64,000 bases of DNA from an uncultured Planctomycetota bacterium (GTDB lineage: Bacteria; Planctomycetota; Planctomycetia; Isosphaerales; Isosphaeraceae), in the NCBI GenBank assembly GCA_963737655.1, contig CAVTTN010000002.1:6752001-6816000 (forward strand), given 5' to 3'. Under the pieces are notes generated by a model that was not told where the DNA came from, did no database searches, and saw only the letters and a list, made by a program, of their open reading frames with translations. This document shows positions 25,126-40,593 of this stretch, in pieces; within the stretch, counting starts at the first letter, position 1; every line of letters begins with the position of its first letter. A program made the translations under genes and the position numbers.

Positions 25126-26082
25126 TCAGGGGGTGTCCAGGGGGCTGCGGACCCCGAGCGGGCCGGACTGAAGAACGTGGGTATAAATCATGGTAGTGCG
25201 AACATCTTCATGCCCCAGGAGTTCCTGGACCGTCCGGATGTCGCGCCCTTCTTCCAGGAGGTGGGTGGCGAAGCTATGGCGGAGCGTGTGGGGGCTGGCC
25301 GGCTTGACCAGGCCCGCGCGGAGGGCGGCCCGTCGCACCGCCCTCTGCAGCGCCTGCTCTCCCACGTGGTGACGGCGGACCGCCCCCGATCGCGGATCGA
25401 CCGACTTCGTCCCCGCGGGGAAGACGTACTGCCAGCCGAGCGAGCGATCCGCCTCGGGATACTTCCTCGCCAGGGCGAACGGCAGGTGGACCCGCCCGAA
25501 CCCCTGGCGGAGGTCCTGCGAATGGAGGTCCTTCACCCGGGCGACCTGGCGCCGAAGCGCCTCGACCAGCGCGACCGGGAGCACCGTCACGCGGTCCTTC
25601 TGCCCTTTGCCGTCGCGAACGACCAGGTGCTTCTGCCCGAAATCCACGTCCTTGACGCGCAAGCGGACGCATTCCATCAGCCGGAGTCCGGACCCGTAAA
25701 GCAGCCCGGCCATCAGCCCGAACGTCCCGTCGAGCTGCGCCAGAAGAGCGCGAACCTCCTGGCGAGTCAGGACCACCGGCAGCCGCTCGGGCCTCCGGGC
25801 CCTGGGCAGGTCGCCAAACTCCTCCAGAGGACGCTTCACGACCTCCCGGTAGAGGAACAACAGGGCGCTGAGTGCCTGGTTCTGGGTCGAGGCCGCCACA
25901 TTCCGATCCACCGCCAGATGGGTCAGGAAGGCCCCAACCTCCACCTCGCCCATTTCCTCGGGATGCCGCTTCTCGTGAAACAAGATGAACTGCTTCGCCC
26001 AGCGGACATAAGCATCCTCAGTGCGAAGGCTATAATGCAACGTCCGGGCAGCCTCCCGGACCCGGTCCAGCAGCATCGACAT
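25126..26082 (-). CDS. intI: Integron integrase
   Basis: [31 protein letters not shown], IntI-specific insert ([10 protein letters not shown]...WQYVFP...RRHH), [21 protein letters not shown]. Confidence 0.98.
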
Positions 26083-26613: not shown

Positions 26614-26978
26614 GGCTGACTCACGGGTCATTCGCAAGGTCTGATGGCAGCGTGCGACGTCGCCGGGGGCCCGGTCGGTCCCGTGCTTCGAGCGTCGTCG
26701 CCGCCGTGTCATCGCGCATCGCCGGTGGCCTCGGTCCTCACCGCGGTGGTGTCGTTGCCGTGGGGGCTCGCGTGCGTTCGTTGCCGCGGGGGTCTTGCGT
26801 CGTGCTCACGCGCCGCCTCCCCGTGAACTCTTCGCGCCGGCGGTTCGGCATCGGTTGATACTATGTGGGCATGATCATCGATCGGCCCGCATCCCCCCCG
26901 GCCCCCGCGACGACGGGGACGGCCCGATCCGGCTCGGCGGGGCTTGCGGTCGGGCGCCCCGCCTCCGACCCGTCGCCC

Positions 26979-28331
26979 TCACGACGGCGGCGACGGCGGC
27001 GACTTCGCCACCAGCTCGTAGCCCAGCGACCTCGCCTTGCGCCGCAGCGACCGCTCCTGCTTCGCGCGCACCTCGGCCTCGTACTCCGCCAGCGACCTCG
27101 ACACGTACTCCTCGCCGTGCCTGAGCATCCGGTACACCAGCCGCGACAGCTTGTGCGCCGTCGCCGTGATCGCCCCCCGGCCGCCGATCCGGCCCTTGAT
27201 CCGCCGGTAGAACTGGCCCGTCGCCGTCGCCGTCCGGCCCGCCGCCTGCGCCGCCATCCGCAGCGCCTGACCCACCCGGTTCTTGCCCTTGCGGGGCGTG
27301 CGACGCCGCTCGGTCTTGTTGCTCCGGTCGGTCCGCGGGCAGAGGCCCAGCCAGCTGGCGAAGTGCTTCTCGCTCGGGAACCGCCCCACGTCGCCGCCGA
27401 GCTCGGCCAGGATCACCGTCGCCGTCGTCGCGTCGATCCCCTCGATGGCCGTCAGGTCCACGCCGATCGCCCGGGCCAGCTTGGCCGGGGCGTCGAACCG
27501 CACGTCGTTGGCCTTGCGGCCGCGCTTGCGGGGCCTCGCCGCGATCGGCCGGCCTTCGGAGCGGTCGGGCAGGCGGTCCAGCTCCTCGGCGATCCGGGCG
27601 TCGCACTCGTCGACCTGGCGGTGGAGGTAGTGGTACAGGTCGGACGCCTGCCTCAGGGCGAACAGGTGCTCGGGCCGCCAGGTGCCCTCCAGGGCCCGGG
27701 CGATCTCCGCCTCGTCCCGGGCGCACCGCTCGTGCCGCAGCGCGGCCAGCTTCGTGGCGTCCCGCTCGCCGGCGAGGATCGCGGCGATGATCGCCGTGCC
27801 GGTGACGCCCGTGATGCTGCTGACGACCTCGGTCAGCTTCACATTCATCTGCTCCAAAGCCTTCTGCATGTGCTGGACGTGGTGCGAGGCGTACCGCACG
27901 AGCATCTGCCGCTGCCGCCAGTAGCCGCGCAGGGCCAGGACGGCCCCGGGCGGGCGGAAGGACGGGCGGAGCAGGCCGCACGAGTGGAGGCGCTGGAGCC
28001 ACTGGCAGTCGAGCCGGTCGGTCTTGGGCCGGGCGCCGCAGTGGCTGGCCTGGCTCGGCTCGATGAGGAAGACCTCGAAGCCGCGCGATTCGAGCAGCTC
28101 GAACAGGGGGATCCAGTAGACGCCGGTGGACTCCAGGACCACCGAGGTGACGCCCTCGGCCCGGAACCAATCGGCCAGGGCGTGGAGGTCGGCCGAGCAG
28201 GCGCCGAAGGTGCGGACCCGTCCGGGCCCGACGCAGGCGACGTGGTTGTCGGAGTGGACGTCGACGGCGGCGGCGTGGGGGTGGACGACCGGCAGGGACG
28301 CGTCGGGATCGGGGGGCGTGCGGCGACTCAT
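26979..28331 (-). CDS. IS110-family transposase
   Basis: DEDD residues (AVDVH, LESTGVYW, KTDRLD); IEGID, FPSEKHFASWLGLCP...S, TATAHKLSRLVY. Confidence 0.96.
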   Translation of the reverse strand: MSRRTPPDPDASLPVVHPHAAAVDVHSDNHVACVGPGRVRTFGACSADLHALADWFRAEGVTSVVLESTGVYWIPLFELLESRGFEVFLIEPSQASHCGARPKTDRLDCQWLQRLHSCGLLRPSFRPPGAVLALRGYWRQRQMLVRYASHHVQHMQKALEQMNVKLTEVVSSITGVTGTAIIAAILAGERDATKLAALRHERCARDEAEIARALEGTWRPEHLFALRQASDLYHYLHRQVDECDARIAEELDRLPDRSEGRPIAARPRKRGRKANDVRFDAPAKLARAIGVDLTAIEGIDATTATVILAELGGDVGRFPSEKHFASWLGLCPRTDRSNKTERRRTPRKGKNRVGQALRMAAQAAGRTATATGQFYRRIKGRIGGRGAITATAHKLSRLVYRMLRHGEEYVSRSLAEYEAEVRAKQERSLRRKARSLGYELVAKSPPSPPS

Positions 28332-28540
28332 GGCGAGGGCTCCGGCGGGTGGGGGGCCAAGCCGTCGCGGGCCGAGAGGGGGTCCGGGGACGAGGTAGTC
28401 TCCCCGACGGGAACGTCGCGGGGCCGTGTTGACACGGCGCCGCGGGTCACCAATGATGGGGCCACGGCCTCTCGGGCCAAGCTAACCTGCGGGCGGCGAG
28501 CACCAGGGAGATGACGGCCGGGAGGCCCGCGGCGGCGACG
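28332..28540 (-). ncRNA. Candidate bridge/seek RNA of IS copy 1 (limits approximate)
   Basis: Non-coding region 5' of transposase; target match CTAACCT 28482-28488 and GGCGGC 28492-28497; end match TCCCCG 28401-28406; minus-strand TACGAT at 28544-28549. Confidence 0.65.
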
Positions 28541-28602
28541 CCGATCGTACCGCGCCCCGGTTCACGTCCGTCGGGGAGCGGTCGCAGGCCGCGCGGAGAG
28601 TT

Positions 28603-28908: not shown

Positions 28909-29288
28909 CTTCGTGAACTCTTTGGCTGGGAACGGCCATCGACGCGCGACACTACCCCAACCCCAGGCTTTGTGGCCGGGCAGCGGCGAGGTCCGGGTAG
29001 CAAACCGACGGATTCAAGAGCGGCGGACGAGGCGCGGGCCGAGAGGGGAGTCGGTTACGTTTGCAGTCTCTTCGACGGGAACATCCCCGCGAGTCGGCTC
29101 GCGGGGCGTCGCCAATGACCGGATCACGACCTCTCGGGCCAGGCTAACCTACGGGCAGGGAGCACCAAGGTGGAGACGGCCGGGAGGCCCGCGCCACACT
29201 CAGGCTACGCCGCGCCGGGTCGGCGGGCAAGTCGTCCCCGACCCCCGTTCACGCCCCGTCGGGAGCGGACGAAGGCCGCAGGATGGTT
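28909..29288 (-). mobile_element. 380-bp non-autonomous IS110-like mini-element M1 in attC3
   Basis: CTTCGTGAACTC...GGATGGTT between GCCT and AAC; homologous to IS non-coding region. Confidence 0.92.
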
Positions 29289-29384
29289 AACCTTGCGCTG
29301 CAGCGGACCCGGCCACGGGCCGCGTTCTTTGTTCTTTCACGCTCACAGGTCCGTGGACCGGTCCGCTGAGCTTTGGCGTTAGGC
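29289..29384 (+). repeat. attC3 (downstream part)
   Basis: AACC...GTTAGGC. Confidence 0.9.
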
Positions 29385-29408
29385 GTCTTCGCAGCGGAGG
29401 GGCACGCG

Positions 29409-29855
29409 GTGGGGATCACTCCGGCGACGCGGAAGCCGGTCCACCTCCTGACGGCTGCCGATCTCGCGGCGTTCCCGGTCTGGGAGTACGCCGACGATGA
29501 GGAGTCCGTCGAGGGTCGGGATGAGACCTGGATCCGCCCTGTCCCCGTCGAAGTCATGCCTTCCCGGAGCTATGCCATCGTCGCGGCGGACTTCGAGGCT
29601 GCTTGCGGTCGTCGCTTCCAGGGGTATGTCTTCGTCTCCACGTTGGAGGGCGCCCCCGACGCATGCCAGGGCGTCATCTGGTCAGGTTCGTCGGGCCTCT
29701 TCGTCGCTAACCCGGAGGCTGTCGTCTACAAGGGATCGCGGGCTGAGTTGCTCGCAGGGCTGGGCGTCGGCGAGCATGAGTTGTTCCCCCTGTCCTTCCG
29801 TCCGCGCGTTCCGGTCGAGGGTATGCAAGGGCTCTGGTCAGGCGTGTTACCCTAA
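29409..29855 (+). CDS. Cassette 4 hypothetical protein
   Basis: GGAGG RBS, GTG start, fills cassette, stop just before attC. Confidence 0.75.
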   Translation: MGITPATRKPVHLLTAADLAAFPVWEYADDEESVEGRDETWIRPVPVEVMPSRSYAIVAADFEAACGRRFQGYVFVSTLEGAPDACQGVIWSGSSGLFVANPEAVVYKGSRAELLAGLGVGEHELFPLSFRPRVPVEGMQGLWSGVLP

Positions 29856-29856
29856 C

Positions 29857-29958
29857 GCCTAACCCGGCGCTGCAGCGGACCCCGGCCACGGGCCGCGCTT
29901 TCTCTTCTGTTGTAGCTCAGTGGTCCGTGGCCGGGTCCGCTGAGCTTGGTCGTTAGGC
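29857..29958 (+). repeat. attC4 (intact)
   Basis: GCCTAAC...GTTAGGC. Confidence 0.92.
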
Positions 29959-29977
29959 GTCAGGGGGCGATCTCGCC

Positions 29978-30421
29978 GTGAGCGTCAAAGTCCTCGCGCT
30001 CGACCTTGAGCGAACGCTGATCGATGACGCCCTGAGCGCCCGCCCACGGCCCGGCCTCCGCGATTTCCTCGCCTTCTGCGACGAGAGCTTCACGCGGGTC
30101 GCCATCTACACCACGGTCGAGGAGACCGACGCCCGCGAAGTCATTGATGAACTGGCCCGTGAGGGCCACGTCACTCAGGCCCTGCTAGCGCGGCTGGAGT
30201 ACATCGATTGGTCGGGCGAGCACAAGGATCTTGCGTATGTGCCCGGCGTCGCCGCGGAAGAGGTGGTGCTCGTCGATGACGACGCCGGTTGGATCCGGCC
30301 GGATCAGCGAGGGAGCTGGGTCGCCATCAAGCCCTGGGACGGCGGGCCGGACGGCGAGTTGCCCCGCATCAGGTCAATACTCCAGGCCCTGGTCGCCGGT
30401 GTGGCCGCGCCGGATGCCTAA
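29978..30421 (+). CDS. Cassette 5 HAD/NIF-type phosphatase-like protein
   Basis: LALDLERTL, RPGLRDFL, KDL, VVLVDD; stop is the attC TAA. Confidence 0.8.
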   Translation: MSVKVLALDLERTLIDDALSARPRPGLRDFLAFCDESFTRVAIYTTVEETDAREVIDELAREGHVTQALLARLEYIDWSGEHKDLAYVPGVAAEEVVLVDDDAGWIRPDQRGSWVAIKPWDGGPDGELPRIRSILQALVAGVAAPDA

Positions 30422-30515
30422 CCTCGCGCTGCAGCGGACCCGGCCCGCCGCGGCGTTTTCTGGTATCATCAAGCCTTCACTTGGCGGTCCGGTCCGCTGA
30501 GCTTTGGCGTTAGGC
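30416..30515 (+). repeat. attC5 (intact)
   Basis: GCCTAAC...GTTAGGC. Confidence 0.92.
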
Positions 30516-30557
30516 GGCTCGACCTCAACCGTGGACGACGTGCACGATGACCCCTCG

Positions 30558-30977
30558 ATGGAGATACGCTCCTGCCACGGCAGGCGTGGCCTCCGCTTCC
30601 ACAGCCGGCGCGGAGACTACTTCCACGCGAGCGTCGAGGGTGACGGCCCGAGTGCCTCCGTGCGGGTCTGGGGCTACACCGATTGCCACCTCCTCGTCGA
30701 CCTCTTCGAGTCGATCGCCCACGACTGGCGCGGCTGGCAAGGCGAGCGTTCCTGGTCCTCCATCGAGGATGAGTTCCGCATCGGTGCCACCACCGACAAG
30801 GCGGGCCATGTCACCCTCTCGGTTGTGCTTGCTCACTGTGACGGGATGGACGACTGGCGGCTCTCGGTGCCGGTCTTCACCGAGGCCGGACAGCTCGAAA
30901 AGATCGCCCGAGAGGTCGCTCGCTTCTTCTCCGGCGATGCGAGCGGCCCCCCGCCCGCAGATGCCGCCTCTTCGTGA
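30558..30977 (+). CDS. Cassette 6 protein, DUF6228-like
   Basis: LFESIAHDWRGWQGERSWSSIE...GHVTL; stop lies inside M2; family recalled, not searched. Confidence 0.7.
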   Translation: MEIRSCHGRRGLRFHSRRGDYFHASVEGDGPSASVRVWGYTDCHLLVDLFESIAHDWRGWQGERSWSSIEDEFRIGATTDKAGHVTLSVVLAHCDGMDDWRLSVPVFTEAGQLEKIAREVARFFSGDASGPPPADAASS

Positions 30978-31349
30978 ACTCTTTGGCTGGGAACGGCCAT
31001 CGACGCGCGACACTACCCCAACCCCAGGCTTTGTGGCCGGGCAGCGGCGAGGTCCGGGTAGCAAACCGACGGATTCAAGAGCGGCGGACGAGGCGCGGGC
31101 CGAGAGGGGAGTCGGTTACGTTTGCAGTCTCTTCGACGGGAACATCCCCGCGAGTCGGCTCGCGGGGCGTCGCCAATGACCGGATCACGACCTCTCGGGC
31201 CAGGCTAACCTACGGGCAGGGAGCACCAAGGTGGAGACGGCCGGGAGGCCCGCGCCACACTCAGGCTACGCCGCGCCGGGTCGGCGGGCAAGTCGTCCCC
31301 GACCCCCGTTCACGCCCCGTCGGGAGCGGACGAAGGCCGCAGGATGGTT
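30970..31349 (-). mobile_element. Mini-element M2 in attC6
   Basis: Same 380-bp sequence and insertion point. Confidence 0.92.
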
Positions 31350-31447
31350 AACCTCGCGCTGCAGCGGACCCCGGCCACGGGCCGCGCCTTCTGCGTCTTC
31401 GTAACTCGCTGGTCCGTGGCCGGGTCCGCTGAGCTTGGTCGTTAGGC
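31350..31447 (+). repeat. attC6 (downstream part)
   Basis: AACC...GTTAGGC. Confidence 0.9.
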
Positions 31448-31464
31448 GGCGGGAGGCTCCCGCG

Positions 31465-31785
31465 ATGGAATGGCCCGAACCGTGGTGCGATGTCGCCGAT
31501 CTCGGCCCCGACTTCGCGGCTACGTTCGAGCGCGTCCTGGTGCGCGAGGTCGCGAGGGGCCATCCGCTCCACGGCATCACGGTCGCAGCGGTCGGCAAGC
31601 GCGACGGCACCGACGACGTGCTATTTCGGCTGCTCGACGGCTCCGGGCGTGTTGCTGCCGTGCATCTGACCTGGACGCGCTCACCTCCCGAACGGCCACC
31701 CTGGCCGGCAACCGAACTATTCGCCAATTTCGAGGCGTTTGCCCGGCATCAGATGCAACCCGACCACGAGGAATACGTGACGTAG
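31465..31785 (+). CDS. Cassette 7 hypothetical protein
   Basis: GGAGG RBS; MEWPEPW...REVARGHPL...DDVLF...VHLTW. Confidence 0.78.
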   Translation: MEWPEPWCDVADLGPDFAATFERVLVREVARGHPLHGITVAAVGKRDGTDDVLFRLLDGSGRVAAVHLTWTRSPPERPPWPATELFANFEAFARHQMQPDHEEYVT

Positions 31786-31807
31786 CGGCGGGCACAGAAC
31801 GCCGCCT

Positions 31808-32187
31808 CTTCGTGAACTCTTTGGCTGGGAACGGCCATCGACGCGCGACACTACCCCAACCCCAGGCTTTGTGGCCGGGCAGCGGCGAGGTCCGGGTAGC
31901 AAACCGACGGATTCAAGAGCGGCGGACGAGGCGCGGGCCGAGAGGGGAGTCGGTTACGCTTGCAGTCTCTTCGACGGGAACATCCCCGCGAGTCGGCTCG
32001 CGGGGCGTCGCCAATGACCGGATCACGACCTCTCGGGCCAGGCTAACCTACGGGCAGGGAGCACCAAGGTGGAGACGGCCGGGAGGCCCGCGCCACACTC
32101 AGGCTACGCCGCGCCGGGTCGGCGGGCAAGTCGTCCCCGACCCCCGTTCACGCCCCGTCGGGAGCGGACGAAGGCCGCAGGATGGTT
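31808..32187 (-). mobile_element. Mini-element M3 in attC7
   Basis: Same 380-bp sequence (C allele). Confidence 0.92.
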
Positions 32188-32282
32188 AACCTCGCGCTGC
32201 AGCGGACCCGGCCCGCCGCGGCGATTTTTCTGCTATCATGGCCCTTCTCGGCGGGCCGGTCCGCTGAGCTTTGGCGTTAGGC
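32188..32282 (+). repeat. attC7 (downstream part)
   Basis: AACC...GTTAGGC. Confidence 0.9.
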
Positions 32283-32299
32283 GGCTCGGAGGTCTGCAA

Positions 32300-32566
32300 G
32301 TGCCACGGCTTCGGTTCACTCGTGCAGAAGCTGAGGCCGAAGCCATACGATTGGCCACAGAGTTCGTCGCCGCGATGCCTGGCACTGAGTCCGCCCGATG
32401 CATCGGTGCCTCCGCCGACCCCTTCACGTCGAGAAGTACAAGCAGCAAGCATCCCGTCATCTGGGCCGTTGGTTTCGTCTTTCACCCACCCGAAGTCGTG
32501 ATGGACGGCGGCGAGTTGTTTGTCGGCGTTAACATCGAAACCAAGGCCGTAACAGCACATGAATAA
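32300..32566 (+). CDS. Cassette 8 hypothetical protein
   Basis: GGAGG RBS, GTG start, fills cassette. Confidence 0.7.
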   Translation: MPRLRFTRAEAEAEAIRLATEFVAAMPGTESARCIGASADPFTSRSTSSKHPVIWAVGFVFHPPEVVMDGGELFVGVNIETKAVTAHE

Positions 32567-32583
32567 CCGCCGTGCGACCGCCT

Positions 32584-34367
32584 CCCCGTGAACTCTTCGC
32601 GCCGGCGGTTCGGCATCGGTTGATACTATGTGGGCATGATCATCGATCGGCCCGCATCCCCCCCGGCCCCCGCGACGACGGGGACGGCCCGATCCGGCTC
32701 GGCGGGGCTTGCGGTCGGGCGCCCCGCCTCCGACCCGTCGCCCTCACGACGGCGGCGACGGCGGCGACTTCGCCACCAGCTCGTAGCCCAGCGACCTCGC
32801 CTTGCGCCGCAGCGACCGCTCCTGCTTCGCGCGCACCTCGGCCTCGTACTCCGCCAGCGACCTCGACACGTACTCCTCGCCGTGCCTGAGCATCCGGTAC
32901 ACCAGCCGCGACAGCTTGTGCGCCGTCGCCGTGATCGCCCCCCGGCCGCCGATCCGGCCCTTGATCCGCCGGTAGAACTGGCCCGTCGCCGTCGCCGTCC
33001 GGCCCGCCGCCTGCGCCGCCATCCGCAGCGCCTGACCCACCCGGTTCTTGCCCTTGCGGGGCGTGCGACGCCGCTCGGTCTTGTTGCTCCGGTCGGTCCG
33101 CGGGCAGAGGCCCAGCCAGCTGGCGAAGTGCTTCTCGCTCGGGAACCGCCCCACGTCGCCGCCGAGCTCGGCCAGGATCACCGTCGCCGTCGTCGCGTCG
33201 ATCCCCTCGATGGCCGTCAGGTCCACGCCGATCGCCCGGGCCAGCTTGGCCGGGGCGTCGAACCGCACGTCGTTGGCCTTGCGGCCGCGCTTGCGGGGCC
33301 TCGCCGCGATCGGCCGGCCTTCGGAGCGGTCGGGCAGGCGGTCCAGCTCCTCGGCGATCCGGGCGTCGCACTCGTCGACCTGGCGGTGGAGGTAGTGGTA
33401 CAGGTCGGACGCCTGCCTCAGGGCGAACAGGTGCTCGGGCCGCCAGGTGCCCTCCAGGGCCCGGGCGATCTCCGCCTCGTCCCGGGCGCACCGCTCGTGC
33501 CGCAGCGCGGCCAGCTTCGTGGCGTCCCGCTCGCCGGCGAGGATCGCGGCGATGATCGCCGTGCCGGTGACGCCCGTGATGCTGCTGACGACCTCGGTCA
33601 GCTTCACATTCATCTGCTCCAAAGCCTTCTGCATGTGCTGGACGTGGTGCGAGGCGTACCGCACGAGCATCTGCCGCTGCCGCCAGTAGCCGCGCAGGGC
33701 CAGGACGGCCCCGGGCGGGCGGAAGGACGGGCGGAGCAGGCCGCACGAGTGGAGGCGCTGGAGCCACTGGCAGTCGAGCCGGTCGGTCTTGGGCCGGGCG
33801 CCGCAGTGGCTGGCCTGGCTCGGCTCGATGAGGAAGACCTCGAAGCCGCGCGATTCGAGCAGCTCGAACAGGGGGATCCAGTAGACGCCGGTGGACTCCA
33901 GGACCACCGAGGTGACGCCCTCGGCCCGGAACCAATCGGCCAGGGCGTGGAGGTCGGCCGAGCAGGCGCCGAAGGTGCGGACCCGTCCGGGCCCGACGCA
34001 GGCGACGTGGTTGTCGGAGTGGACGTCGACGGCGGCGGCGTGGGGGTGGACGACCGGCAGGGACGCGTCGGGATCGGGGGGCGTGCGGCGACTCATGGCG
34101 AGGGCTCCGGCGGGTGGGGGGCCAAGCCGTCGCGGGCCGAGAGGGGGTCCGGGGACGAGGTAGTCTCCCCGACGGGAACGTCGCGGGGCCGTGTTGACAC
34201 GGCGCCGCGGGTCACCAATGATGGGGCCACGGCCTCTCGGGCCAAGCTAACCTGCGGGCGGCGAGCACCAGGGAGATGACGGCCGGGAGGCCCGCGGCGG
34301 CGACGCCGATCGTACCGCGCCCCGGTTCACGTCCGTCGGGGAGCGGTCGCAGGCCGCGCGGAGAGTT
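32584..34367 (-). mobile_element. IS110-family element copy 2 (1784 bp) in attC8
   Basis: Same length and ends as copy 1, identical translation. Confidence 0.95.
32744..34096 (-). CDS. IS110-family transposase
   Basis: Identical protein to 26979-28331. Confidence 0.96.
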   Translation of the reverse strand: MSRRTPPDPDASLPVVHPHAAAVDVHSDNHVACVGPGRVRTFGACSADLHALADWFRAEGVTSVVLESTGVYWIPLFELLESRGFEVFLIEPSQASHCGARPKTDRLDCQWLQRLHSCGLLRPSFRPPGAVLALRGYWRQRQMLVRYASHHVQHMQKALEQMNVKLTEVVSSITGVTGTAIIAAILAGERDATKLAALRHERCARDEAEIARALEGTWRPEHLFALRQASDLYHYLHRQVDECDARIAEELDRLPDRSEGRPIAARPRKRGRKANDVRFDAPAKLARAIGVDLTAIEGIDATTATVILAELGGDVGRFPSEKHFASWLGLCPRTDRSNKTERRRTPRKGKNRVGQALRMAAQAAGRTATATGQFYRRIKGRIGGRGAITATAHKLSRLVYRMLRHGEEYVSRSLAEYEAEVRAKQERSLRRKARSLGYELVAKSPPSPPS

Positions 34368-34463
34368 AACCTTGCGCTGCAGCGGACCCGGCCCGCCGCG
34401 GCGGTTTCTGGTAACATCAAGCCTTCACTCGGCGGGCCGGTCCGCTGAGCTTGGTCGTTAGGC
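34368..34463 (+). repeat. attC8 (downstream part)
   Basis: AACC...GTTAGGC. Confidence 0.9.
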
Positions 34464-34654
34464 GGCTCGGCAACCGGTCGAGCCGGGGAGGGGGATGCGA
34501 TGCCCGTTCGGCCGTTCGCGCCTCGTCGCCGTGCCGGTCGTCGCGTCGCCGTGCCGGTCGTCGCGTCGCCGTCGGCCGCGCCCCGCGTCGTCGCCGCCCG
34601 GGGTGGCGCGCGTGGTCGCCGCCGGCGGTCGTGCCCCGCGCGGTCGCGCCGCCT

Positions 34655-35034
34655 CTTCGTGAACTCTTTGGCTGGGAACGGCCATCGACGCGCGACACTA
34701 CCCCAACCCCAGGCTTTGTGGCCGGGCAGCGGCGAGGTCCGGGTAGCAAACCGACGGATTCAAGAGCGGCGGACGAGGCGCGGGCCGAGAGGGGAGTCGG
34801 TTACGTTTGCAGTCTCTTCGACGGGAACATCCCCGCGAGTCGGCTCGCGGGGCGTCGCCAATGACCGGATCACGACCTCTCGGGCCAGGCTAACCTACGG
34901 GCAGGGAGCACCAAGGTGGAGACGGCCGGGAGGCCCGCGCCACACTCAGGCTACGCCGCGCCGGGTCGGCGGGCAAGTCGTCCCCGACCCCCGTTCACGC
35001 CCCGTCGGGAGCGGACGAAGGCCGCAGGATGGTT
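34655..35034 (-). mobile_element. Mini-element M4 in attC9
   Basis: Same 380-bp sequence (T allele). Confidence 0.92.
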
Positions 35035-35129
35035 AACCTCGCGCTGCAGCGGACCCCACCCGCCGCATCGGTTTCTGGTAGATTCAAGGTCGCTCGTGCG
35101 GGTGGGTCCGCTGAGCTTGGCCGTTAGGC
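35035..35129 (+). repeat. attC9 (downstream part)
   Basis: AACC...GTTAGGC. Confidence 0.9.
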
Positions 35130-35360
35130 GGCTCAGGAGTCGAAGCCTTCGGTCGTGCTCGTCGTCGGCCTCGCCGGTCGCGCCTCGGCTCGACGACGCC
35201 ATCGGTCGGGCCCCTGGAGTCGGCCTCGGCGGTGGTGCGCGTCGTCGCCCTCGCCGGCCGCGCCCCCGAGGTCGGGCCCGTCGGCCGGCGCCCCCTTGCC
35301 AACGCCGTCGGTCCGTGCCAGGATCGTCGGTGTCGGCGCGTGGGGCGTCGCCGGGGCGCC

Positions 35361-35460
35361 GCCTAACCCGGCGCTGCAGCGGACCCGGCCCGCGGTCGAC
35401 GATCACTCTCCTCTCAATCTCGCCGGGCGCGGGCCGGTCCGCTGAGCTTTGTCGTTAGGC
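35361..35460 (+). repeat. attC10 (intact, same as attC1)
   Basis: GCCTAAC...GTTAGGC. Confidence 0.92.
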
Positions 35461-35485
35461 GTATTAGGTCGATCGGAGGCTCTGG

Positions 35486-35896
35486 ATGCGCAGTAGAGTC
35501 CGCTATGTCAGTGGTTTGCTATCGCTGTCCGTGCTGATCTTTACCTCGTGCAGCCCGGAGCGACCGGCGGGCAGCGAGGCGGACGCGTGGCCATCCGACC
35601 AAGAGATCCTCGCCTACCTCGATGGCAAGACGATTTTCGAGCCCACGCCTGCCTCATCGGAGAAGGGAGGTAGTGTACCCCCGAAATCCTTCTTGCTGAA
35701 GGCAGGCAACATTTCCTCCTTGGAAGTGAAGAAGTCGGGGGTTGCTGTCTCGGGCGAGCCTTGGACGACGCCGATCCATTTCATCCTCGACGAGGGGGGG
35801 CGTAAATATGCCGTTGATGCCAGCGTCGATCACCGGAAAGTCGATAATAAACGGGCCTTCTTCGGGCTCAAGGCCGAGCGCATCGCTGAGCAGTGA
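35486..35896 (+). CDS. Cassette 11 putative lipoprotein
   Basis: GGAGG RBS; signal peptide ending LIFTSC. Confidence 0.78.
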   Translation: MRSRVRYVSGLLSLSVLIFTSCSPERPAGSEADAWPSDQEILAYLDGKTIFEPTPASSEKGGSVPPKSFLLKAGNISSLEVKKSGVAVSGEPWTTPIHFILDEGGRKYAVDASVDHRKVDNKRAFFGLKAERIAEQ

Positions 35897-35897
35897 C

Positions 35898-35998
35898 GCC
35901 TAACCTCGCGCTGCAGCGGACCCCGGCCACGGGCCGCGCTCCCTCTTCCCTCAAGCTCACTGGTCCGTGGCCGGGTCCGCTGAGCTTTGGCGTTAGGC
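35898..35998 (+). repeat. attC11 (intact)
   Basis: GCCTAAC...GTTAGGC. Confidence 0.92.
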
Positions 35999-36014
35999 GG
36001 CAGAGGAGATTGGG

Positions 36015-36545
36015 ATGACCACCTCACCCCGTGACCGCATGCGGATGATCGTCGGCGATATCACGACACTAGCCGTCGACGCCGTCGTCACGGCCGCCAA
36101 TGAGTCCCTCCTCGGCGGCGGGGGAGTCGATGGCGCCATCCACCGAGCCGCCGGCCCCGGGTTGCTCGACGAGTGCCGCACCCTGGGGATCTGCAACGAG
36201 GGCGAGGCGAAGATCAGCGGCGCCTATCGCCTGCCCGCCAAATACATCATCCATACCGTCGGGCCGGTCTGGGAGGGCGGCCACTACGATGAGGTCGGCA
36301 CCTTGCGGCGGTGCTACAGGGCCTGCCTGGAATTGGCGGAGGGGCGCGGCGTCGAGTCGATCGCCTTCCCATGCGTCGCCACGGGCGTCTACGAGTTCCC
36401 GAAGGACCTGGCCTGCGAGGTCGCCGTCGACGCCGTGCGCGAATGGCTGTCGGACCACGACCTCCCGAAGCAGGTGGTCTTCTGCTGCTTCGAGGAGTCG
36501 GATGCCGCGCTGTACCGTGACCGCCTCTCCGCGGCCATCGCCTAA
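36015..36545 (+). CDS. Cassette 12 macrodomain protein (YmdB-like ADP-ribose hydrolase)
   Basis: GDIT, AANESLLGGGGVDGAIHRAAG, IIHTVGP, SIAFPCVATGVY. Confidence 0.93.
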   Translation: MTTSPRDRMRMIVGDITTLAVDAVVTAANESLLGGGGVDGAIHRAAGPGLLDECRTLGICNEGEAKISGAYRLPAKYIIHTVGPVWEGGHYDEVGTLRRCYRACLELAEGRGVESIAFPCVATGVYEFPKDLACEVAVDAVREWLSDHDLPKQVVFCCFEESDAALYRDRLSAAIA

Positions 36546-36638
36546 CCTGGCGCTGCAGCGGACCCGGCCCGCCGCGGTAGTTTCCGTGCTATCATCGGTC
36601 TGCTCGGCGGGCCGGTCCGCTGAGCTTGGTCGTTAGGC
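36540..36638 (+). repeat. attC12 (intact)
   Basis: GCCTAAC...GTTAGGC. Confidence 0.92.
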
Positions 36639-36661
36639 TCCGAAGTCGGAAGGTGAGTGCG

Positions 36662-37528
36662 ATGCAACAAGCTTCACAACCAAACGCGATGCAGCAACCC
36701 ATAAAGGAGTTGCTCAAGGCGATAGCCGAACAGTCGAATCCGAAGCAACTCAGGGAAGCCTTATTCGAAAAGCGGTTGCTGGCGCGGGCCTTCGCCATCT
36801 GCCCGGATGCGGAACAAGCCGCGAAGTTAACGGACATCGTGTTCAAGCGACTCAGCGACTTGGATAAACAAGTTGAATTGGCACGGGCTGAATGGGACGA
36901 ATTCAAGAACAAGGCATGCACAGACTGGAAGAGGGTCCGAGCGGAGATCGAACACGAGAATCTGCTCATCAATCACCGTTTGGGATGGTTATTTACCTCA
37001 CAGATTTTCCTGCTCGGAGGTTTTGCGGCGGTCTTTCAGGCTTCTCTCAAGGAGAACCTACTCACCAGTTCGCTCCCAGTCCAGGTTGTATTATTAGCGA
37101 TATCAGTCGTCGCCGTTTCAATTTGTGCATTTGTGACTGCTTCTGTCGATGCAGCTCATAAACAGATTGAATTCTTGGAGAATTGGTGGTTCGCTCACTA
37201 CCTGAGCAAAAAACTGAAAATGATGGATATCTTCTGCGTCGAAAAATTGACAGATCACCCTCCAATCAACGGTATTTTTGATGAATGGTTGTACACTATC
37301 CTAAGTACGAAATGGATGCCAGTACCGATCGCTCTAGGCTGGCTCGCCTTGATGTCTGCAGTATTCTTTGAGAAGATTTTGAAGATCGAGCAGCCTGTTG
37401 TCCCAACGGTTGCCTCGACCACCGTCGTGTTTGGGCTGGGTGTCGGGCTCTTCTATTTTGCGACGTTGCGGCGCAAGCGTCCGAATCGCAAAGTTGGTTC
37501 CTGGAAAGAGCCCGCCGCCTCTTCGTGA
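36662..37528 (+). CDS. Cassette 13 low-GC membrane protein (about 4 TM helices)
   Basis: Helical N-terminus, EHENLLINHRLGWLFTSQ then hydrophobic segments; stop inside M5. Confidence 0.8.
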   Translation: MQQASQPNAMQQPIKELLKAIAEQSNPKQLREALFEKRLLARAFAICPDAEQAAKLTDIVFKRLSDLDKQVELARAEWDEFKNKACTDWKRVRAEIEHENLLINHRLGWLFTSQIFLLGGFAAVFQASLKENLLTSSLPVQVVLLAISVVAVSICAFVTASVDAAHKQIEFLENWWFAHYLSKKLKMMDIFCVEKLTDHPPINGIFDEWLYTILSTKWMPVPIALGWLALMSAVFFEKILKIEQPVVPTVASTTVVFGLGVGLFYFATLRRKRPNRKVGSWKEPAASS

Positions 37529-37900
37529 ACTCTTTGGCTGGGAACGGCCATCGACGCGCGACACTACCCCAACCCCAGGCTTTGTGGCCGGGCAGCGGCG
37601 AGGTCCGGGTAGCAAACCGACGGATTCAAGAGCGGCGGACGAGGCGCGGGCCGAGAGGGGAGTCGGTTACGCTTGCAGTCTCTTCGACGGGAACATCCCC
37701 GCGAGTCGGCTCGCGGGGCGTCGCCAATGACCGGATCACGACCTCTCGGGCCAGGCTAACCTACGGGCAGGGAGCACCAAGGTGGAGACGGCCGGGAGGC
37801 CCGCGCCACACTCAGGCTACGCCGCGCCGGGTCGGCGGGCAAGTCGTCCCCGACCCCCGTTCACGCCCCGTCGGGAGCGGACGAAGGCCGCAGGATGGTT
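37521..37900 (-). mobile_element. Mini-element M5 in attC13
   Basis: Same 380-bp sequence (C allele). Confidence 0.92.
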
Positions 37901-37997
37901 AACCTCGCGCTGCAGCGGACCCCGGCCACGGGTTACGTTTTCTCTTCTCCCAAGCTCACCGGTCCGTGGCCGGGTCCGCTGAGCTTGGTCGTTAGGC
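37901..37997 (+). repeat. attC13 (downstream part)
   Basis: AACC...GTTAGGC. Confidence 0.9.
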
Positions 37998-38021
37998 GGC
38001 TTTCCCCGGTGAGGCCGACTC

Positions 38022-38420
38022 GTGCGCATCAGCATCCCACGCCTCCCGGTCGCGCTCGTCATCCGAGCGGATCGGCGGCCCCGACGGCCGATCAAGCCGA
38101 GGTTCACCCTTCGTGGCATGATGCTTGCCGTGCTCGTCGTCGGGCTGGTGCTCGCGCTGTCGCTCCACGCGGCGAGGTTGCAACGGGCTGGCAACGACCA
38201 TGCGGCGCGAGCGGTCCTGCTCGCCCCGGGCGCCGGCACGATGCCTCCGGTCGTGGGCTGGCACAACGCGAGGGCGAACGCCCTCTTCGCGGCCGCCTGG
38301 CGCTGGCACATGGCGGTCACCACGCTCGTTGTCAGCTCGGCCGCCTTGGGGTGTATCGCGGCCATCGGCCGGTGCGTCGCTTCTGCGCCCCGGCCCTACG
38401 GTGGGTCGGAAGGCGCCTGA
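38022..38420 (+). CDS. Cassette 14 small membrane protein
   Basis: PRFTLRGMMLAVLVVGLVLAL; stop in attC. Confidence 0.65.
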   Translation: MRISIPRLPVALVIRADRRPRRPIKPRFTLRGMMLAVLVVGLVLALSLHAARLQRAGNDHAARAVLLAPGAGTMPPVVGWHNARANALFAAAWRWHMAVTTLVVSSAALGCIAAIGRCVASAPRPYGGSEGA

Positions 38421-38512
38421 CCTCGCGCTGCAGCGGACCCCGCACCGCCGCGGCGCTTTCTCTGCTACCATGTCGTTGTTCGGCGGTGCGGGTCCGCTCA
38501 GCTTGGGCGTTA
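38415..38512 (+). repeat. attC14 (GCCTGAC variant; R' box split by MITE)
   Basis: Conserved arms; GTTA then insertion then TAGGC. Confidence 0.8.
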
Positions 38513-38658
38513 TTGCCCTTCAGGTTGTCCGGTTCCGGACGATCCCCGGGTGGCCGGGGGCTCGTCCGCGAGACCCCGGTCCCGCGGGGTCGGCCGACCG
38601 GGGTCTCGCCGGCGAGCCCCCGGCCACCCGGACAGGAACCCAACAATCTGAAGGTCAA
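38513..38658. mobile_element. 146-bp palindromic MITE with TA duplication
   Basis: TTGCCCTTCAGGTTGT...ACAATCTGAAGGTCAA flanked by TA at 38511-38512 and 38659-38660. Confidence 0.8.
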
Positions 38659-38685
38659 TAGGCACACTCACACACGGCATCACGC

Positions 38686-39147
38686 ATGAGCACAGGAAAC
38701 ACAAAAGCCGTCAGAGATTCCGAGACGTGCTGGGAACTTGATGAAGAGTTCATGTTGTATGCCGCGACCATTCCAGACCCGCCGAAGGCGGGTGCGGCCA
38801 CGACGGTGAGGCTCACGCATCGGAGCTCCTGCGGCCCGTTCGACTTCGCTGAATTTTTCGTTCGTGTAGGAAACTCGGCCAAGTCGAACGCCCCGCGCGA
38901 TTCGGATTCGACGACAGATTGGATTCAGGCGCGATTGGTCGAGGAGTTGGTCACCGTCGCTGAGGAAGAGATGCATCGTTCAGAGGCGCAAGAGCCTTTC
39001 GATGACGAGACACTTTGGATCGGGACTTACGAGGCCGACTTAATCTTTCCCGTCGGGCAGAGTTCCATCGAGATCAAGATCGTCAGCCAAGAGCCAGAGA
39101 TGCTCGGGTCATTCGTGCTGACGGACTGGGAGGTGACGGTTGGATGA
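38686..39147 (+). CDS. Cassette 15 acidic hypothetical protein
   Basis: Fills cassette. Confidence 0.75.
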   Translation: MSTGNTKAVRDSETCWELDEEFMLYAATIPDPPKAGAATTVRLTHRSSCGPFDFAEFFVRVGNSAKSNAPRDSDSTTDWIQARLVEELVTVAEEEMHRSEAQEPFDDETLWIGTYEADLIFPVGQSSIEIKIVSQEPEMLGSFVLTDWEVTVG

Positions 39148-39158
39148 GCCGTGCGCCT

Positions 39159-39538
39159 CTTCGTGAACTCTTTGGCTGGGAACGGCCATCGACGCGCGAC
39201 ACTACCCCAACCCCAGGCTTTGTGGCCGGGCAGCGGCGAGGTCCGGGTAGCAAACCGACGGATTCAAGAGCGGCGGACGAGGCGCGGGCCGAGAGGGGAG
39301 TCGGTTACGCTTGCAGTCTCTTCGACGGGAACATCCCCGCGAGTCGGCTCGCGGGGCGTCGCCAATGACCGGATCACGACCTCTCGGGCCAGGCTAACCT
39401 ACGGGCAGGGAGCACCAAGGTGGAGACGGCCGGGAGGCCCGCGCCACACTCAGGCTACGCCGCGCCGGGTCGGCGGGCAAGTCGTCCCCGACCCCCGTTC
39501 ACGCCCCGTCGGGAGCGGACGAAGGCCGCAGGATGGTT
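39159..39538 (-). mobile_element. Mini-element M6 in attC15
   Basis: Same 380-bp sequence (C allele). Confidence 0.92.
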
Positions 39539-39634: not shown

Positions 39635-39644
39635 GGCTCTCCCT

Positions 39645-39953
39645 TTGGGCGTCGAGGATCATACGTTCTCTGTGCGAATCGTCTCCATCGAGCGACTCCG
39701 CCTGCGGAATGGGTCGTCGCTGCTCCTCCTTGGCCTCGACATGACGTACCTTCAAGCGGCGCGGTCTGGTTGTCCGGGTGCCAAGGCACGCGTCGTATCC
39801 GGCGATGCCGTCACGCCAGTCCGGGGCACCCTGGCCTTTCAGCAACCACTCGACAGCCTCGCGACCGTGAGCGTATCTTCACCTGAGTCGATCATCGTCG
39901 CTGTCGGCGACACGTTCGAGTTCGAGCGAGCCGACCCCGCCGCCTCCCCGTGA
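39645..39953 (+). CDS. Cassette 16 hypothetical protein
   Basis: Fills cassette; stop inside IS end; weak start. Confidence 0.5.
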   Translation: MGVEDHTFSVRIVSIERLRLRNGSSLLLLGLDMTYLQAARSGCPGAKARVVSGDAVTPVRGTLAFQQPLDSLATVSVSSPESIIVAVGDTFEFERADPAASP

Positions 39954-40593
39954 ACTCTTCGCGCCGGCGGTTCGGCATCGGTTGATACTATGTGGGCGTG
40001 ATCATCGATCGGCCCGCATCCCCCCCGGCCCCCGCGACGACGGGGACGGCCCGATCCGGCTCGGCGGGGCTTGCGGTCGGGCGCCCCGCCTCCGACCCGT
40101 CGCCCTCACGACGGCGGCGACGGCGGCGACTTCGCCACCAGCTCGTAGCCCAGCGACCTCGCCTTGCGCCGCAGCGAACGCTCCTGCTTCCGCCTCACCT
40201 CCGCCTCGTACTCCGCCAGCGACCTCGACACGTACTCCTCGCCGTGCCTGAGCAGCCGGTACACCAGCCGCGACAGCTTGTGCGCCGTCGCCGTGATCGC
40301 CCCGCGGCCGCCGATCCGGCCCTTGATCCGCCGGGGGGTCAAAAAGGGGACGGGGGGTCAAAAAGGGGACGGAGCGAATAAATTCAGCTTTTTGCATTTT
40401 GCCGCGTCTCATCCAGGCCGAACTTATTCGCTCCGTCCCCTTTTCGGCCCCAAGCTAACCTGCGGGCGGCGAGCACCAGGGAAGGGACGGCCGGGAGGCT
40501 CGCGACGGCGTGCCCCAGCGTATCGCGCCCGGTGGTCGGGGCCACCCCCGGTTCACGTCCGTCGGGGAGCGGTCGGAGACGGCGCGGAGAGTT
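39946..40593 (-). mobile_element. Internally deleted, diverged IS110 copy 3 in attC16
   Basis: Both ends and transposase 3' end (40106-40332) kept; middle replaced by 40333-40450. Confidence 0.9.
40333..40444. repeat. REP/MITE-like inverted repeat at the deletion junction
   Basis: AAAAGGGGACGGAGCGAATAA 40361-40381 and exact complement 40424-40444; 19-nt tandem 40333-40370. Confidence 0.8.

What the first reader, a model, noticed from the sequence alone, without database searches (positions are those of the whole stretch)
28909..39538. Six transposase-less 380-bp 'guide-RNA-only' IS110 mini-elements parasitising attC sites
Seen: six near-identical 380-bp units (28909, 30970, 31808, 34655, 37521, 39159), each at GCCT^AAC of a different attC, the same base used by the full IS110 copies. 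They have no credible ORF. They share the terminal CGTGAACTCTT and about 250 bp of diverged homology with the non-coding region 5' of the IS110 transposase, so they are not simple deletions of the resident IS. Known: IS110/IS1111 transposases are RNA-guided recombinases (bridge/seek RNA), and attC-targeting IS1111 elements exist. Inference: these are non-autonomous elements reduced to ends plus their own guide RNA, borrowing a recombinase in trans and outnumbering the autonomous element. I do not know of this being described in integron arrays.
Basis: partly seen in the sequence, partly recalled or inferred. Interest (0 to 1): 0.95.

Follow-up and report, generated by a model that had tools for sequence, protein, structure and literature searches.

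The report
Transposase-less guide-RNA mini-elements in integron sites
A planctomycete genome carries 28 copies of a 380-base jumping element that has lost its enzyme gene but kept its own guide RNA, and it has filled most matching docking sites of the cell's gene-cassette arrays, probably by borrowing the enzyme of a related resident element.

Summary
The six 380-bp units are real, and the genome holds 28. Each is a precise insertion at CCT^AACCT in the left arm of an attC site. One cassette exists both filled and empty.

The units are transposase-less derivatives of an IS110-family element. They keep both ends and the non-coding left end, which encodes a bridge/seek-type RNA on the minus strand.

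Related elements show that two 7-nt words of this RNA are guides:
- AGGUUAG follows the target flank, in 5 target classes.
- CGAAGAG in the mini, against CGGGGAG in the resident IS, follows each element's own end, in 3 classes.

So the mini has a private donor code.

AACCT-type attC sites are filled 35 of 48. AACCC, GACCT and other types are filled 0 of 21.

No transposase-bearing parent with the mini's ends was found. Use of the resident transposase in trans is therefore inferred, not shown. No RNA or circle data were available.

Closest precedent: MITEPpu9 of ISPpu9 (PMC12288879) and the attC-targeting IS1111 elements.

Verdict: first reading supported; a new variant of a known kind; interest moderate to high.

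The parts
28909..29288 (-). Mini-element copy 1 (380 bp). The strand given is that of its RNA. On the + strand it reads CTTCGTGAAC...GGATGGTT.
   Evidence: Flanks are GCCGCCT| and |AACCTTGCGCTGCAGCGGACC.
30970..31349 (-). Mini-element copy 2
   Evidence: C2:6782970, 100% to copy 1.
31808..32187 (-). Mini-element copy 3
   Evidence: An empty paralogue of its cassette end (90% identical) lies at C2:1972235.
34655..35034 (-). Mini-element copy 4
   Evidence: Cassette and mini are duplicated at C2:1673105, with identical flanks.
37521..37900 (-). Mini-element copy 5
39159..39538 (-). Mini-element copy 6 (left flank GTGCGCCT)
29031..29195 (-). Structured core of the guide RNA in copy 1: a closing stem plus a target arm and a donor arm.
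   Evidence: Alignments A2 and A3, consensus fold and pair counts. Covariance model R1 hits all 28 minis and 7 IS copies on this strand.
29144..29150 (-). Target guide AGGUUAG, complementary to + strand CT|AACCT of attC.
   Evidence: The word changes with the right flank in relatives: AACCT, CCACC, AACCC, TCGCT, CATCC.
29068..29074 (-). Donor guide CGAAGAG, complementary to + strand CT|CTTCG, which is the flank CT plus the mini's own left end.
   Evidence: The resident IS and the G002 IS have CGGGGAG with ends CCCCG. The G019, G075, G106, G048 and G044 IS have UGGGGAG with ends CCCCA.
29202..29230 (-). Promoter-like hexamers TTGCCC, 17 nt, TAGCCT, just upstream of the RNA core (inference only).
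   Evidence: They are in register with TGGTTC/TTGTTC ... TAnnnT in relatives. The consensus scan found no sigma-70 site.
26819..28602 (-). Resident autonomous IS110-family element, copy 1 (1784 bp). The transposase gene is 28331..26979 and the guide-RNA region is 28364-28533.
   Evidence: Pfam DEDD_Tnp_IS110 and Transposase_20. NCBIfam NF033542 at 253 bits against a cut-off of 140. Ends.
32584..34367 (-). Resident IS copy 2, identical to copy 1 (transposase gene 34096..32744).
39946..40593 (-). Dead remnant of the resident IS: IS bases 1-389, then a 120-bp palindromic hairpin element (about 40330-40455), then a diverged IS 1659-1784. It lacks the donor arm.
35895..35908 (+). Empty allele. The uninterrupted attC left end GACGCCT|AACCTCG belongs to the same cassette that carries a mini at C2:1971065.
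   Evidence: 347 nt identical to the left; the attC differs by one indel.
25126..26082 (-). Integron integrase intI, the only one in the genome. The cassette array runs rightwards on the + strand.
   Evidence: Pfam. TIGR02249 at 475 bits against a cut-off of 265.

Best explanation
The 380-bp units are non-autonomous, transposase-less derivatives of an IS110-family insertion sequence.

What each unit keeps:
- both element ends;
- the non-coding left end which, in the autonomous relatives, lies upstream of the DEDD transposase gene;
- in that region, a bridge/seek-type guide RNA read from the window's minus strand, antisense to the cassettes.

The RNA has a closing stem and two arms.
- The target arm carries AGGUUAG. 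This pairs with CT|AACCT at the 5' end (R'' core, GCCT^AAC) of attC.
- The donor arm carries CGAAGAG. This pairs with CT|CTTCG, the unit's own left end. The resident IS has CGGGGAG for its own CCCCG end.

Most likely mechanism:
1. The mini's own RNA loads onto the transposase made by the resident IS copies.
2. It pairs the mini's ends and excises a 380-bp circle.
3. It inserts the circle into any free AACCT-type attC.

The mini is thus a parasite of the resident IS that needs only its protein.

Shown by sequence: the anatomy, precise insertion, guide/target and guide/end covariation, single-base site preference, copy numbers, and a recent burst.

Inferred: transcription, RNA-protein compatibility, circle formation, and supply of the protein in trans.
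For: Insertion.
- 28 of 28 copies lie at ..CT|..|AACCT.
- 27 of these are followed by the conserved attC left arm; the 28th is followed by a truncated one.
- A filled and an empty version of one cassette define a clean 380-bp insertion.

Family.
- The ends and 258 nt are homologous to the resident IS non-coding region.
- The resident transposase scores as an IS110-family RNA-guided transposase.
- It matches IS621 in the PDB at E 1.5e-10.

RNA.
- 97.9% of 572 cells pair, against 43-51% with slid partners.
- 7 pairs show compensatory change.
- Covariation is 0.176 against 0.101 in shuffles (0 of 500 shuffles reach it).
- 64 G.U cells would be mismatches on the other strand. One G.U pair is kept in 14 of 14 rows.
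- Alifold gives -49.5 on the minus strand against -39.9 on the plus strand.
- Within the five mini rows, 7 of 82 paired columns vary against 43 of 185 unpaired ones. Five of those 7 changes keep the pair.

Guides.
- The target word equals CT plus the five flank bases in 5 classes (AACCT, CCACC, AACCC, TCGCT, CATCC). One exception was seen among the relatives' copies (L038, 4 of 5).
- The donor word equals CT plus the first five bases of the element's own end in all 13 elements whose end was recovered, which fall in 3 classes.

Site choice.
- AACCT-type attC are filled 35 of 48. AACCC (13), GACCT (6), AACCG (1) and AAACT (1) types are filled 0 of 21. Fisher p = 3e-9.

No cognate parent.
- CTTCGTGAACTCTT occurs 28 times, only in minis.
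- The genome holds 6 intact resident transposase genes, 2 remnants and one 33%-identical relative.
- None was found in 121 genomes of the family or in two collection scans.

Recent activity.
- 14 of 28 copies are identical to the consensus.

Literature.
- IS110/IS1111 elements can be moved with the RNA and the transposase supplied in trans (PMC11187229, passages).
- A seekRNA works across transposases that are 46% identical (same paper, passages).
- The IS621 recombinase-RNA complex also performs excision (PMC13626964, abstract).
Against: - No expression or circle data. No RNA run holds the sequence, so transcription is unproven.
- No sigma-70 consensus promoter was found. The hexamers I propose are weak, and the older mini lineage has TAGCCC.
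- The single-sequence fold is unremarkable (z = -1.55).
- Only one half of each guide pair was identified. No covarying word was found for the target's left side (only CCT is kept) or for the element's right end.
- The junctions are asymmetric: CT on the left and TT on the right in the 28 minis and in the window's IS copies, with the 8 IS right ends shown by the GAGAGTT census. The IS621 model does not explain this.
- 14 CCTAACCT sites outside attC are all empty. A 7-nt guide therefore cannot be the whole specificity.
- The mini RNA core is only 77% identical to the resident IS RNA (123 of 160). Compatibility with that protein is assumed.
- In G003, which also has minis, the best transposase match is 43% identical. 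That assembly is fragmentary (77% complete).
- The match between donor word and end could simply be inherited from a lost parent.
Confidence: 0.65

Rival explanations
1. Fossils of a lost parent. An autonomous IS with CTTCG ends and the same RNA once lived in this lineage and supplied both protein and RNA. The minis spread then and are now immobile.
For: - The mini is not a deletion of the resident IS (75-83% identity, different ends).
- Its tail resembles the start of the G019-type transposase rather than the resident one.
- Older lineages at 88-95% identity, and copies in another species at 83-86%, show a long history.
Against: - 14 of 28 copies are identical and 24 differ by at most 3 bases, so the burst is very recent.
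- Yet no copy or remnant of such a parent remains in a 3-contig genome.
- None was found in 121 related genomes or in the two collection scans. Those scans were exact 18-mer matches only.
Confidence: 0.2
2. Ends-only hitchhiker. The minis are moved by the resident IS's own RNA and protein, and the RNA inside the mini is a vestige.
For: - The target word is the same in the mini and in the IS.
- The ends share CGTGAACTCTT, and the right ends are homologous.
Against: - The resident RNA's donor word (CGGGGAG) mismatches the mini end (CTTCG) at 2 of 5 non-core bases. The mini's own word matches fully.
- IS621 tolerates double mismatches poorly. That passage (PMC11208160) concerns the target loop.
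- The mini RNA is under structural constraint between lineages.
Confidence: 0.07
3. No transposition. The copies spread by cassette duplication, integrase-mediated shuffling or gene conversion between attC sites.
For: Some cassette-plus-mini units are duplicated. C2:1673105 and window 34655 have identical flanks. C2:1679758 and C2:1977494 share a left flank.
Against: - Most of the 28 copies have different left flanks and different attC loops.
- Homology to the left of the insertion is only 3-7 nt.
- A filled and an empty pair exists.
- The strict preference for AACCT over AACCC and GACCT attC fits a guide, not recombination.
Confidence: 0.03

Closest known systems
MITEPpu9 (the ssr9 module) of ISPpu9, IS110 family, Pseudomonas putida KT2440 (PMC12288879; abstract and passages read)
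   Same: A natural transposase-less module. It is flanked by near-copies of the IS ends, carries a small-RNA gene and occurs apart from the IS. It forms minicircles that need the IS transposase, and the authors interpret it as selfish. Recombination is at an AG dinucleotide, which is the CT seen here on the other strand.
   Different: - Ssr9 is described as a regulator that pairs with an antisense RNA, not as a guide.
- Its end boxes differ from those of the IS by 1-3 mismatches, and no private donor code is reported.
- It has 8 copies, in REP sequences.
- Here there are 28 copies in attC. The RNA is the homologue of the IS's own guide RNA, and its donor word is matched to ends that differ from the resident IS.
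IS1111-attC group (ISPa21, ISPst6, ISKpn4). Tetu & Holmes 2008 and Post & Hall 2009 could not be read here. I know them through PMC3001079 and PMC11187229 (passages).
   Same: DEDD-transposase elements that insert near the 5' end of attC, antisense to cassette transcription, guided by an RNA from their non-coding region.
   Different: - Those elements have the non-coding region and seekRNA downstream of tnp, and longer subterminal inverted repeats.
- Here the region is upstream (IS110 layout) and the inverted repeat is 7 bp.
- Those are autonomous elements. My searches found no transposase-less form described for them.
- The best plasmid-borne relatives of the resident transposase are under 50% identical.
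IS621 bridge RNA (PMC11208160; PMC13626964)
   Same: An RNA upstream of tnp with a target loop and a donor loop. The guides include a CT core. The same complex inserts and excises.
   Different: [quoted passage not shown]
- The two arms sit inside one closing stem.
- Protein similarity is remote (E 1.5e-10).
- No Rfam family matched.
Laboratory mini-IS with seekRNA and transposase supplied in trans (PMC11187229, passages)
   Same: Ends plus cargo move when the RNA and the protein come from elsewhere.
   Different: Those are engineered constructs. Here the element is natural and carries the RNA itself as its only content.
Group IIC-attC introns (PMC3001079, passage)
   Same: Another RNA-based parasite of the 5' end of attC, also antisense to the cassettes.
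   Different: The mechanism is unrelated (retrohoming ribozyme with reverse transcriptase). No intron family matched in 25000-43000.

Membership tests
IS110 family (DEDD transposase elements): resident IS | DEDD/RuvC-like N-terminal domain plus the IS116/IS110/IS902 C-terminal domain | tested here: met
   PF01548 (E 1.9e-17) and PF02371 (E 5.9e-18). NF033542 at 253 bits against a cut-off of 140.
IS110 family: mini-element as a non-autonomous derivative | Ends and non-coding region homologous to an autonomous member, same insertion site and orientation, no transposase gene | tested here: met
   Model R1 scores the minis at 160-174 bits and the IS copies at 136-150 bits.
Bridge RNA / seekRNA | Non-coding RNA from the long non-coding end, transcribed in the transposase sense | tested here: inconclusive
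   Position and strand are supported by structure conservation and G.U pairs. No transcript data are available.
Bridge RNA / seekRNA | A segment that covaries with, and is complementary to, the target | tested here: met
   Five target classes; the word equals CT plus five flank bases. Occupancy is 35 of 48 against 0 of 21 by attC type.
Bridge RNA (IS110 group) | A second loop that covaries with the element's own ends (the donor) | tested here: met
   Three end classes (CTTCG, CCCCG, CCCCA) are matched by the donor word in 13 of 13 elements with a recovered end.
Bridge RNA (IS110 group) | Each loop holds two guides, one for each DNA strand (left and right guides) | tested here: inconclusive
   Only one guide per loop was found. 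The 5' side of the target loop matches the left flank in G106 and G048b but poorly in the attC-targeting members.
Bridge RNA / seekRNA | Binds the transposase and is required for movement | not testable with these tools
   Needs pull-down and transposition assays.
IS1111 group / IS1111-attC subgroup | Long non-coding region downstream of tnp | tested here: not met
   About 270 nt lie upstream and about 160 nt downstream. The RNA lies upstream.
IS1111 group / IS1111-attC subgroup | Subterminal inverted repeats of 7-17 bp | tested here: inconclusive
   A 7-bp repeat, CGTGAAC/GTTCACG, is present. It lies 3 nt from one end but about 33-40 nt from the other.
IS1111-attC subgroup | Transposase inside the monophyletic attC-associated clade | not tested
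   No reference sequences of ISPa21, ISPst6 or ISKpn4 were available. Plasmid matches are all under 50% identity and are annotated only as IS110 family.
MITE (classical) | Terminal inverted repeats and a target-site duplication | tested here: not met
   No terminal inverted repeat. The filled and empty comparison shows no duplication beyond a 1-nt ambiguity.
Integron attC site (the target) | R''-L''...L'-R' imperfect palindrome ending in GTTRRRY, arrayed next to intI | tested here: met
   GCCT|AAC...GTTAGGC with paired arms is visible. intI is confirmed. No formal attC model was run.

The most novel reading that the evidence does not exclude
A selfish guide-RNA gene. The mini is a hyperparasite whose only content is a bridge RNA with a private donor code. 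It reprograms the resident IS110 recombinase to copy the mini instead of the IS, and it competes with the IS for the same attC sites (27 sites held against 8). In doing so it splits the R'' core of nearly half of the cell's attC sites, which probably freezes cassette exchange. This would be a natural case of one bridge recombinase served by two orthogonal RNAs in one cell.
Probability: 0.5. Interest if true: 0.75.

Novelty: new variant of a known kind. Interest (0 to 1): 0.62.

Why it matters
Bridge and seek RNAs were described only in 2024, and their natural ecology is barely known.

For the RNA-guided recombinase field, this locus offers three things:
- sequence-level evidence that a non-autonomous element can live on the RNA alone;
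- a donor word that has parted from that of the autonomous element in the same cell, which amounts to natural orthogonal programming of one recombinase;
- a compact, alignment-supported RNA scaffold from an unexplored phylum, with five natural target reprogrammings, for engineering.

For integron biology, it shows a chromosomal array system with one intI and several integrase-less arrays. About 45% of recognisable attC left arms (35 of 78) are interrupted. The choice of site follows a single base of the attC core.

The mechanism is directly testable with a three-plasmid assay.

Tried and rejected
- Rfam scan of 25000-43000 at E<=1: only chance microRNA and snoRNA hits, all on the hairpin element or at weak scores. 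No bridge-RNA or intron family matched.
- Consensus promoter scan: 0 sites.
- Single-sequence folds are weak: z = -1.55 on the minus strand and -0.23 on the plus strand.
- Sequencing-run search: no RNA holder listed. All 20 rows hold 7% or less of the words, so I laid no reads.
- Search for the autonomous parent. The mini as a DNA query against 41 and then 121 related genomes gave full-length matches only in G000 and G003. The transposase against G001-G003 gave no cognate element.
- The exact 18-mer AGTCTCTTCGACGGGRAC gave 25 loci in genome contigs. Only one, L068, is real. It has the same alignment figures as L002, so it is not counted as independent.
- The same 18-mer gave 46 loci in metagenome contigs, none real. 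A parent with one change in that 18-mer would be missed.
- Search for the second guide halves by word matching to the element's right end: no word at a conserved position. GGAUG in the mini lies in a stem and has no counterpart in relatives.
- Two other sequences ending ..GGTT before an attC-like arm were only noted. GAATGGTT is an ordinary gene end, not an element.
- In one search, the loose 15-mer anchor also returned about 40 single non-attC matches. I left these out of the occupancy table. Of the AACCT rows without CCT, I left 4 out of the 48 (TCT, GCT, CCC, CCG; the first two end in CT). Counting the two CT rows as empty gives p = 1.4e-8.
- Tetu & Holmes 2008 is not held. Post & Hall 2009 was not looked up. 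A transposase-less form might be mentioned in either.
- Earlier notes of this scan by place and by sequence: nothing on this locus.

Full report
**Observation**

The repeat finder returns six copies at the stated starts, 99-100% identical. Reading the junctions gives units of exactly 380 bp, CTTCGTGAAC...GGATGGTT. Each lies between ...GCCT and AACCT[C/T]GCGCTGCAGCGGACC..., and the attC loops and R' cores (GTTAGGC) that follow differ between copies.

The window also holds:
- an integron integrase at 25126-26082 on the minus strand;
- two identical 1784-bp IS copies at 26819-28602 and 32584-34367, whose transposase gene reads on the minus strand;
- one broken copy at 39946-40593.

The IS copies sit at the same base of other attC sites: GCCGCCT|CCCCGTGAAC...GGAGAGTT|AACC.

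**Genome-wide picture**

In the laid genome (7.63 Mb, 3 contigs) the unit has 28 full-length copies. Of these, 24 are at >=98.9% and four are at 97.9, 95.0, 88.5 and 87.7%. Fourteen are identical to the consensus.

All 28 are flanked by ..CT on the left (27 CCT, one ACT) and AACCT on the right. Twenty-seven of them are followed by the conserved attC left arm, and the 28th (C2:1977494) by a truncated one.

Of 78 matches to the attC left arm (<=3 mismatches):
- 27 are preceded by a mini;
- 8 are preceded by the IS;
- 34 are empty and read CCT|;
- 9 are other.

There is a single intI, so the other clusters are integrase-less arrays.

**Proof of insertion**

I searched left and right flanks separately. 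One cassette end, 347 nt identical and with the same attC, is filled at C2:1971065 and empty at window 35901/35902, where it reads GACGCCT|AACCTCGCG. A second, more diverged pair also exists. The unit is therefore a discrete insertion without target duplication; the limits can slide by one T.

**What it is related to**

Mini 1-14 matches the IS left terminus. Mini 123-380 aligns with IS 1546-1784, the region upstream of the transposase gene. Mini 15-122 has no partner in the resident IS.

The resident protein has both IS110-family domains. It passes NCBIfam's 'IS110 family RNA-guided transposase' model and matches IS621 in the PDB.

No ORF lies inside the unit, and the overlapping frames match no Pfam family.

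**The RNA**

Related genomes supplied homologues:
- minis at 83-86% in G003, also in attC;
- a full IS at 81% in G002;
- more distant IS copies in G019, G021, G075, G106, G048, G044 and G063.

An alignment of 14 sequences in the transposase sense (A2) folds into:
- a 5' hairpin;
- a closing stem;
- a target arm;
- a donor arm with an inner hairpin.

For that structure:
- 97.9% of 572 cells pair, against 93.5% in column shuffles and 43-51% with slid partners;
- 7 pairs show changes on both sides;
- the covariation score is reached by 0 of 500 shuffles.

The caveat is that the structure was derived from the same alignment.

Sixty-four cells are G.U, among them one pair kept in 14 of 14 rows. These would be mismatches on the other strand. 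Alifold prefers the minus strand, -49.5 against -39.9. The RNA therefore reads on the window's minus strand, like the transposase gene and antisense to the cassettes.

Between mini lineages, paired columns vary less than unpaired ones (7 of 82 against 43 of 185), and five of the seven changes keep the pair.

A covariance model of the 170-position core finds 35 matches in this genome, the 28 minis and 7 IS copies, all on the expected strand. It also finds matches in 22 of 121 genomes of the order as sampled.

**The guides**

Two 7-nt words behave as guides. I write them here on the + strand.

The first is CT plus five bases in the target arm. It equals the five bases that follow the element:

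| Right-flank class | Elements |
|---|---|
| AACCT | minis, resident IS, G002 IS |
| CCACC | G019, G075, G048 |
| AACCC | G106 |
| TCGCT | G044 |
| CATCC | a second G019 element |

One copy, L038, matches at 4 of 5.

The second is CT plus five bases in the donor arm. It equals the flank CT plus the element's own first five bases:

| End class | Elements |
|---|---|
| CTTCG | minis of both species |
| CCCCG | resident IS and G002 IS |
| CCCCA | the G019, G075, G106 and G048 elements whose end was recovered |

This holds in 13 of 13 elements whose end was recovered, falling in three classes. G044 carries the same donor word, but its end was not recovered. Copies within one genome are not independent, so the classes are the honest count.

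The layout parallels the IS621 bridge RNA, in which each loop's guides include the CT core (PMC11208160, passages). It also fits the seekRNA description of short matches to both target strands (PMC11187229, passages).

The mini thus carries a donor word for its own ends. That word differs at two bases from the resident IS's word.

**Site choice**

I sorted credible attC left ends by their first five bases:

| attC type | Filled | Total |
|---|---|---|
| AACCT | 35 (27 minis, 8 IS) | 48 |
| AACCC | 0 | 13 |
| GACCT | 0 | 6 |
| AACCG | 0 | 1 |
| AAACT | 0 | 1 |

Fisher p = 3e-9. About 40 single non-attC matches of the loose anchor were dropped. Duplicated cassettes make the test somewhat generous. 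A one-base change in the attC core is enough to spare a site, as a guide would predict.

**Origin and helper**

The genome has six intact copies of the resident transposase gene (three identical, three at 97%), two remnants, and one unrelated IS110-family gene at 33%. None has the mini's ends, and CTTCGTGAACTCTT occurs 28 times, all in minis.

No transposase-bearing element with the mini's donor word was found in 121 related genomes or in two collection scans.

The mini's tail in the RNA sense is ATGGCCGTTCCCAGCCAAAGAG|TTCACGAAG. It resembles the start of the G019-type transposase gene, ATGGTCGTCCCAAACGAAGAG. This suggests a deletion between GAAGAG repeats in a non-resident parent (inference).

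The burst is very recent and no parent remains. The simplest reading is that the mini's RNA uses the resident transposase. The RNA cores are 77% identical. The seekRNA paper reports function across 46%-identical transposases (passage).

**Not explained**

- I found only one guide per loop.
- In the copies read, the left junction reads CT and the right one TT.
- 14 CCTAACCT sites outside attC are all empty.
- There is no consensus promoter, only weak hexamers in register with relatives.
- No RNA or circle data were available.

**Comparison with what is known**

attC-targeting DEDD elements are known as the IS1111-attC group. They too insert at the 5' end of attC, antisense to the cassettes (PMC3001079, passage). 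Their RNA is downstream of tnp, whereas here the layout is IS110-type.

A natural transposase-less IS110-family module that forms circles with the transposase in trans is published as MITEPpu9 (PMC12288879). Its RNA was not read as a guide, and no private end code was reported.

My searches for such elements in integrons, or with bridge RNAs, returned nothing else. Two key older papers could not be read.

Earlier notes of this scan report transposase-less IS110-family minis in other genomes. The kind is therefore recurrent.

What is new here is the combination of three things: amplification to 28 copies, near-saturation of one attC type, and a donor code distinct from the resident autonomous element.

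**Verdict**

- Observation: confirmed.
- First reading: supported, with trans-mobilisation inferred.
- Novelty: a new variant of a known kind.

Noticed in passing
window 40330-40455; also C2:286707-286828 and C2:1680752-1680867: A palindromic hairpin element of about 120 bp with low G+C (about 0.5). It has a duplicated GGGGTCAAAAAGGGGACGG head. It gave the chance microRNA hits in Rfam. There are three copies in the genome. Two of them sit exactly at the deletion joints of the two broken resident IS copies, and the third sits inside an attC next to a mini.
   Followed up: partly
L144 (G014:C6), L147 (G067:C264), L161 and L142 (G072:C2): Other transposase-less derivatives of the same IS lineage keep the RNA module. 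One is 489 bp with ends CT|CCCCATGAAC...GGTT|AACCC. In G072, both a full IS and a derivative of about 0.5 kb sit in attC-like sites 3 kb apart. attC targeting by this lineage is therefore not confined to one genus.
   Followed up: partly
C2:1975838-1976217 (locus L048): This mini copy looks chimeric. Its first 205 nt are identical to the main lineage. The rest is like the old 88% lineage, which suggests recombination between minis.
   Followed up: no
L036, L037, L040, L042, L043, L004, L010: The CCACC-guided relatives in G019, G048 and G075 mostly insert into one conserved repeat, CCACCGCCGCTCCGATAGCTnCnGGCTGGAGCGACCCAGTTGCC. This may be a REP-like family of those genomes.
   Followed up: no
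window 25126-26082 and genome-wide: The genome has only one integron integrase but about eight clusters of attC sites. Most arrays therefore lack an integrase.
   Followed up: partly
L054 (G003:C84): An IS110-family element with a transposase about 40% identical has a similar target arm reading GCTGGTTAGTCTGGCC. Its guide word may be CTAACCA-type.
   Followed up: no
window 711-1952 and 52428-54184: Two further repeat families unrelated to the finding: three diverged 225-nt units spaced about 500 nt apart, and a 237-nt pair at 82% identity.
   Followed up: no
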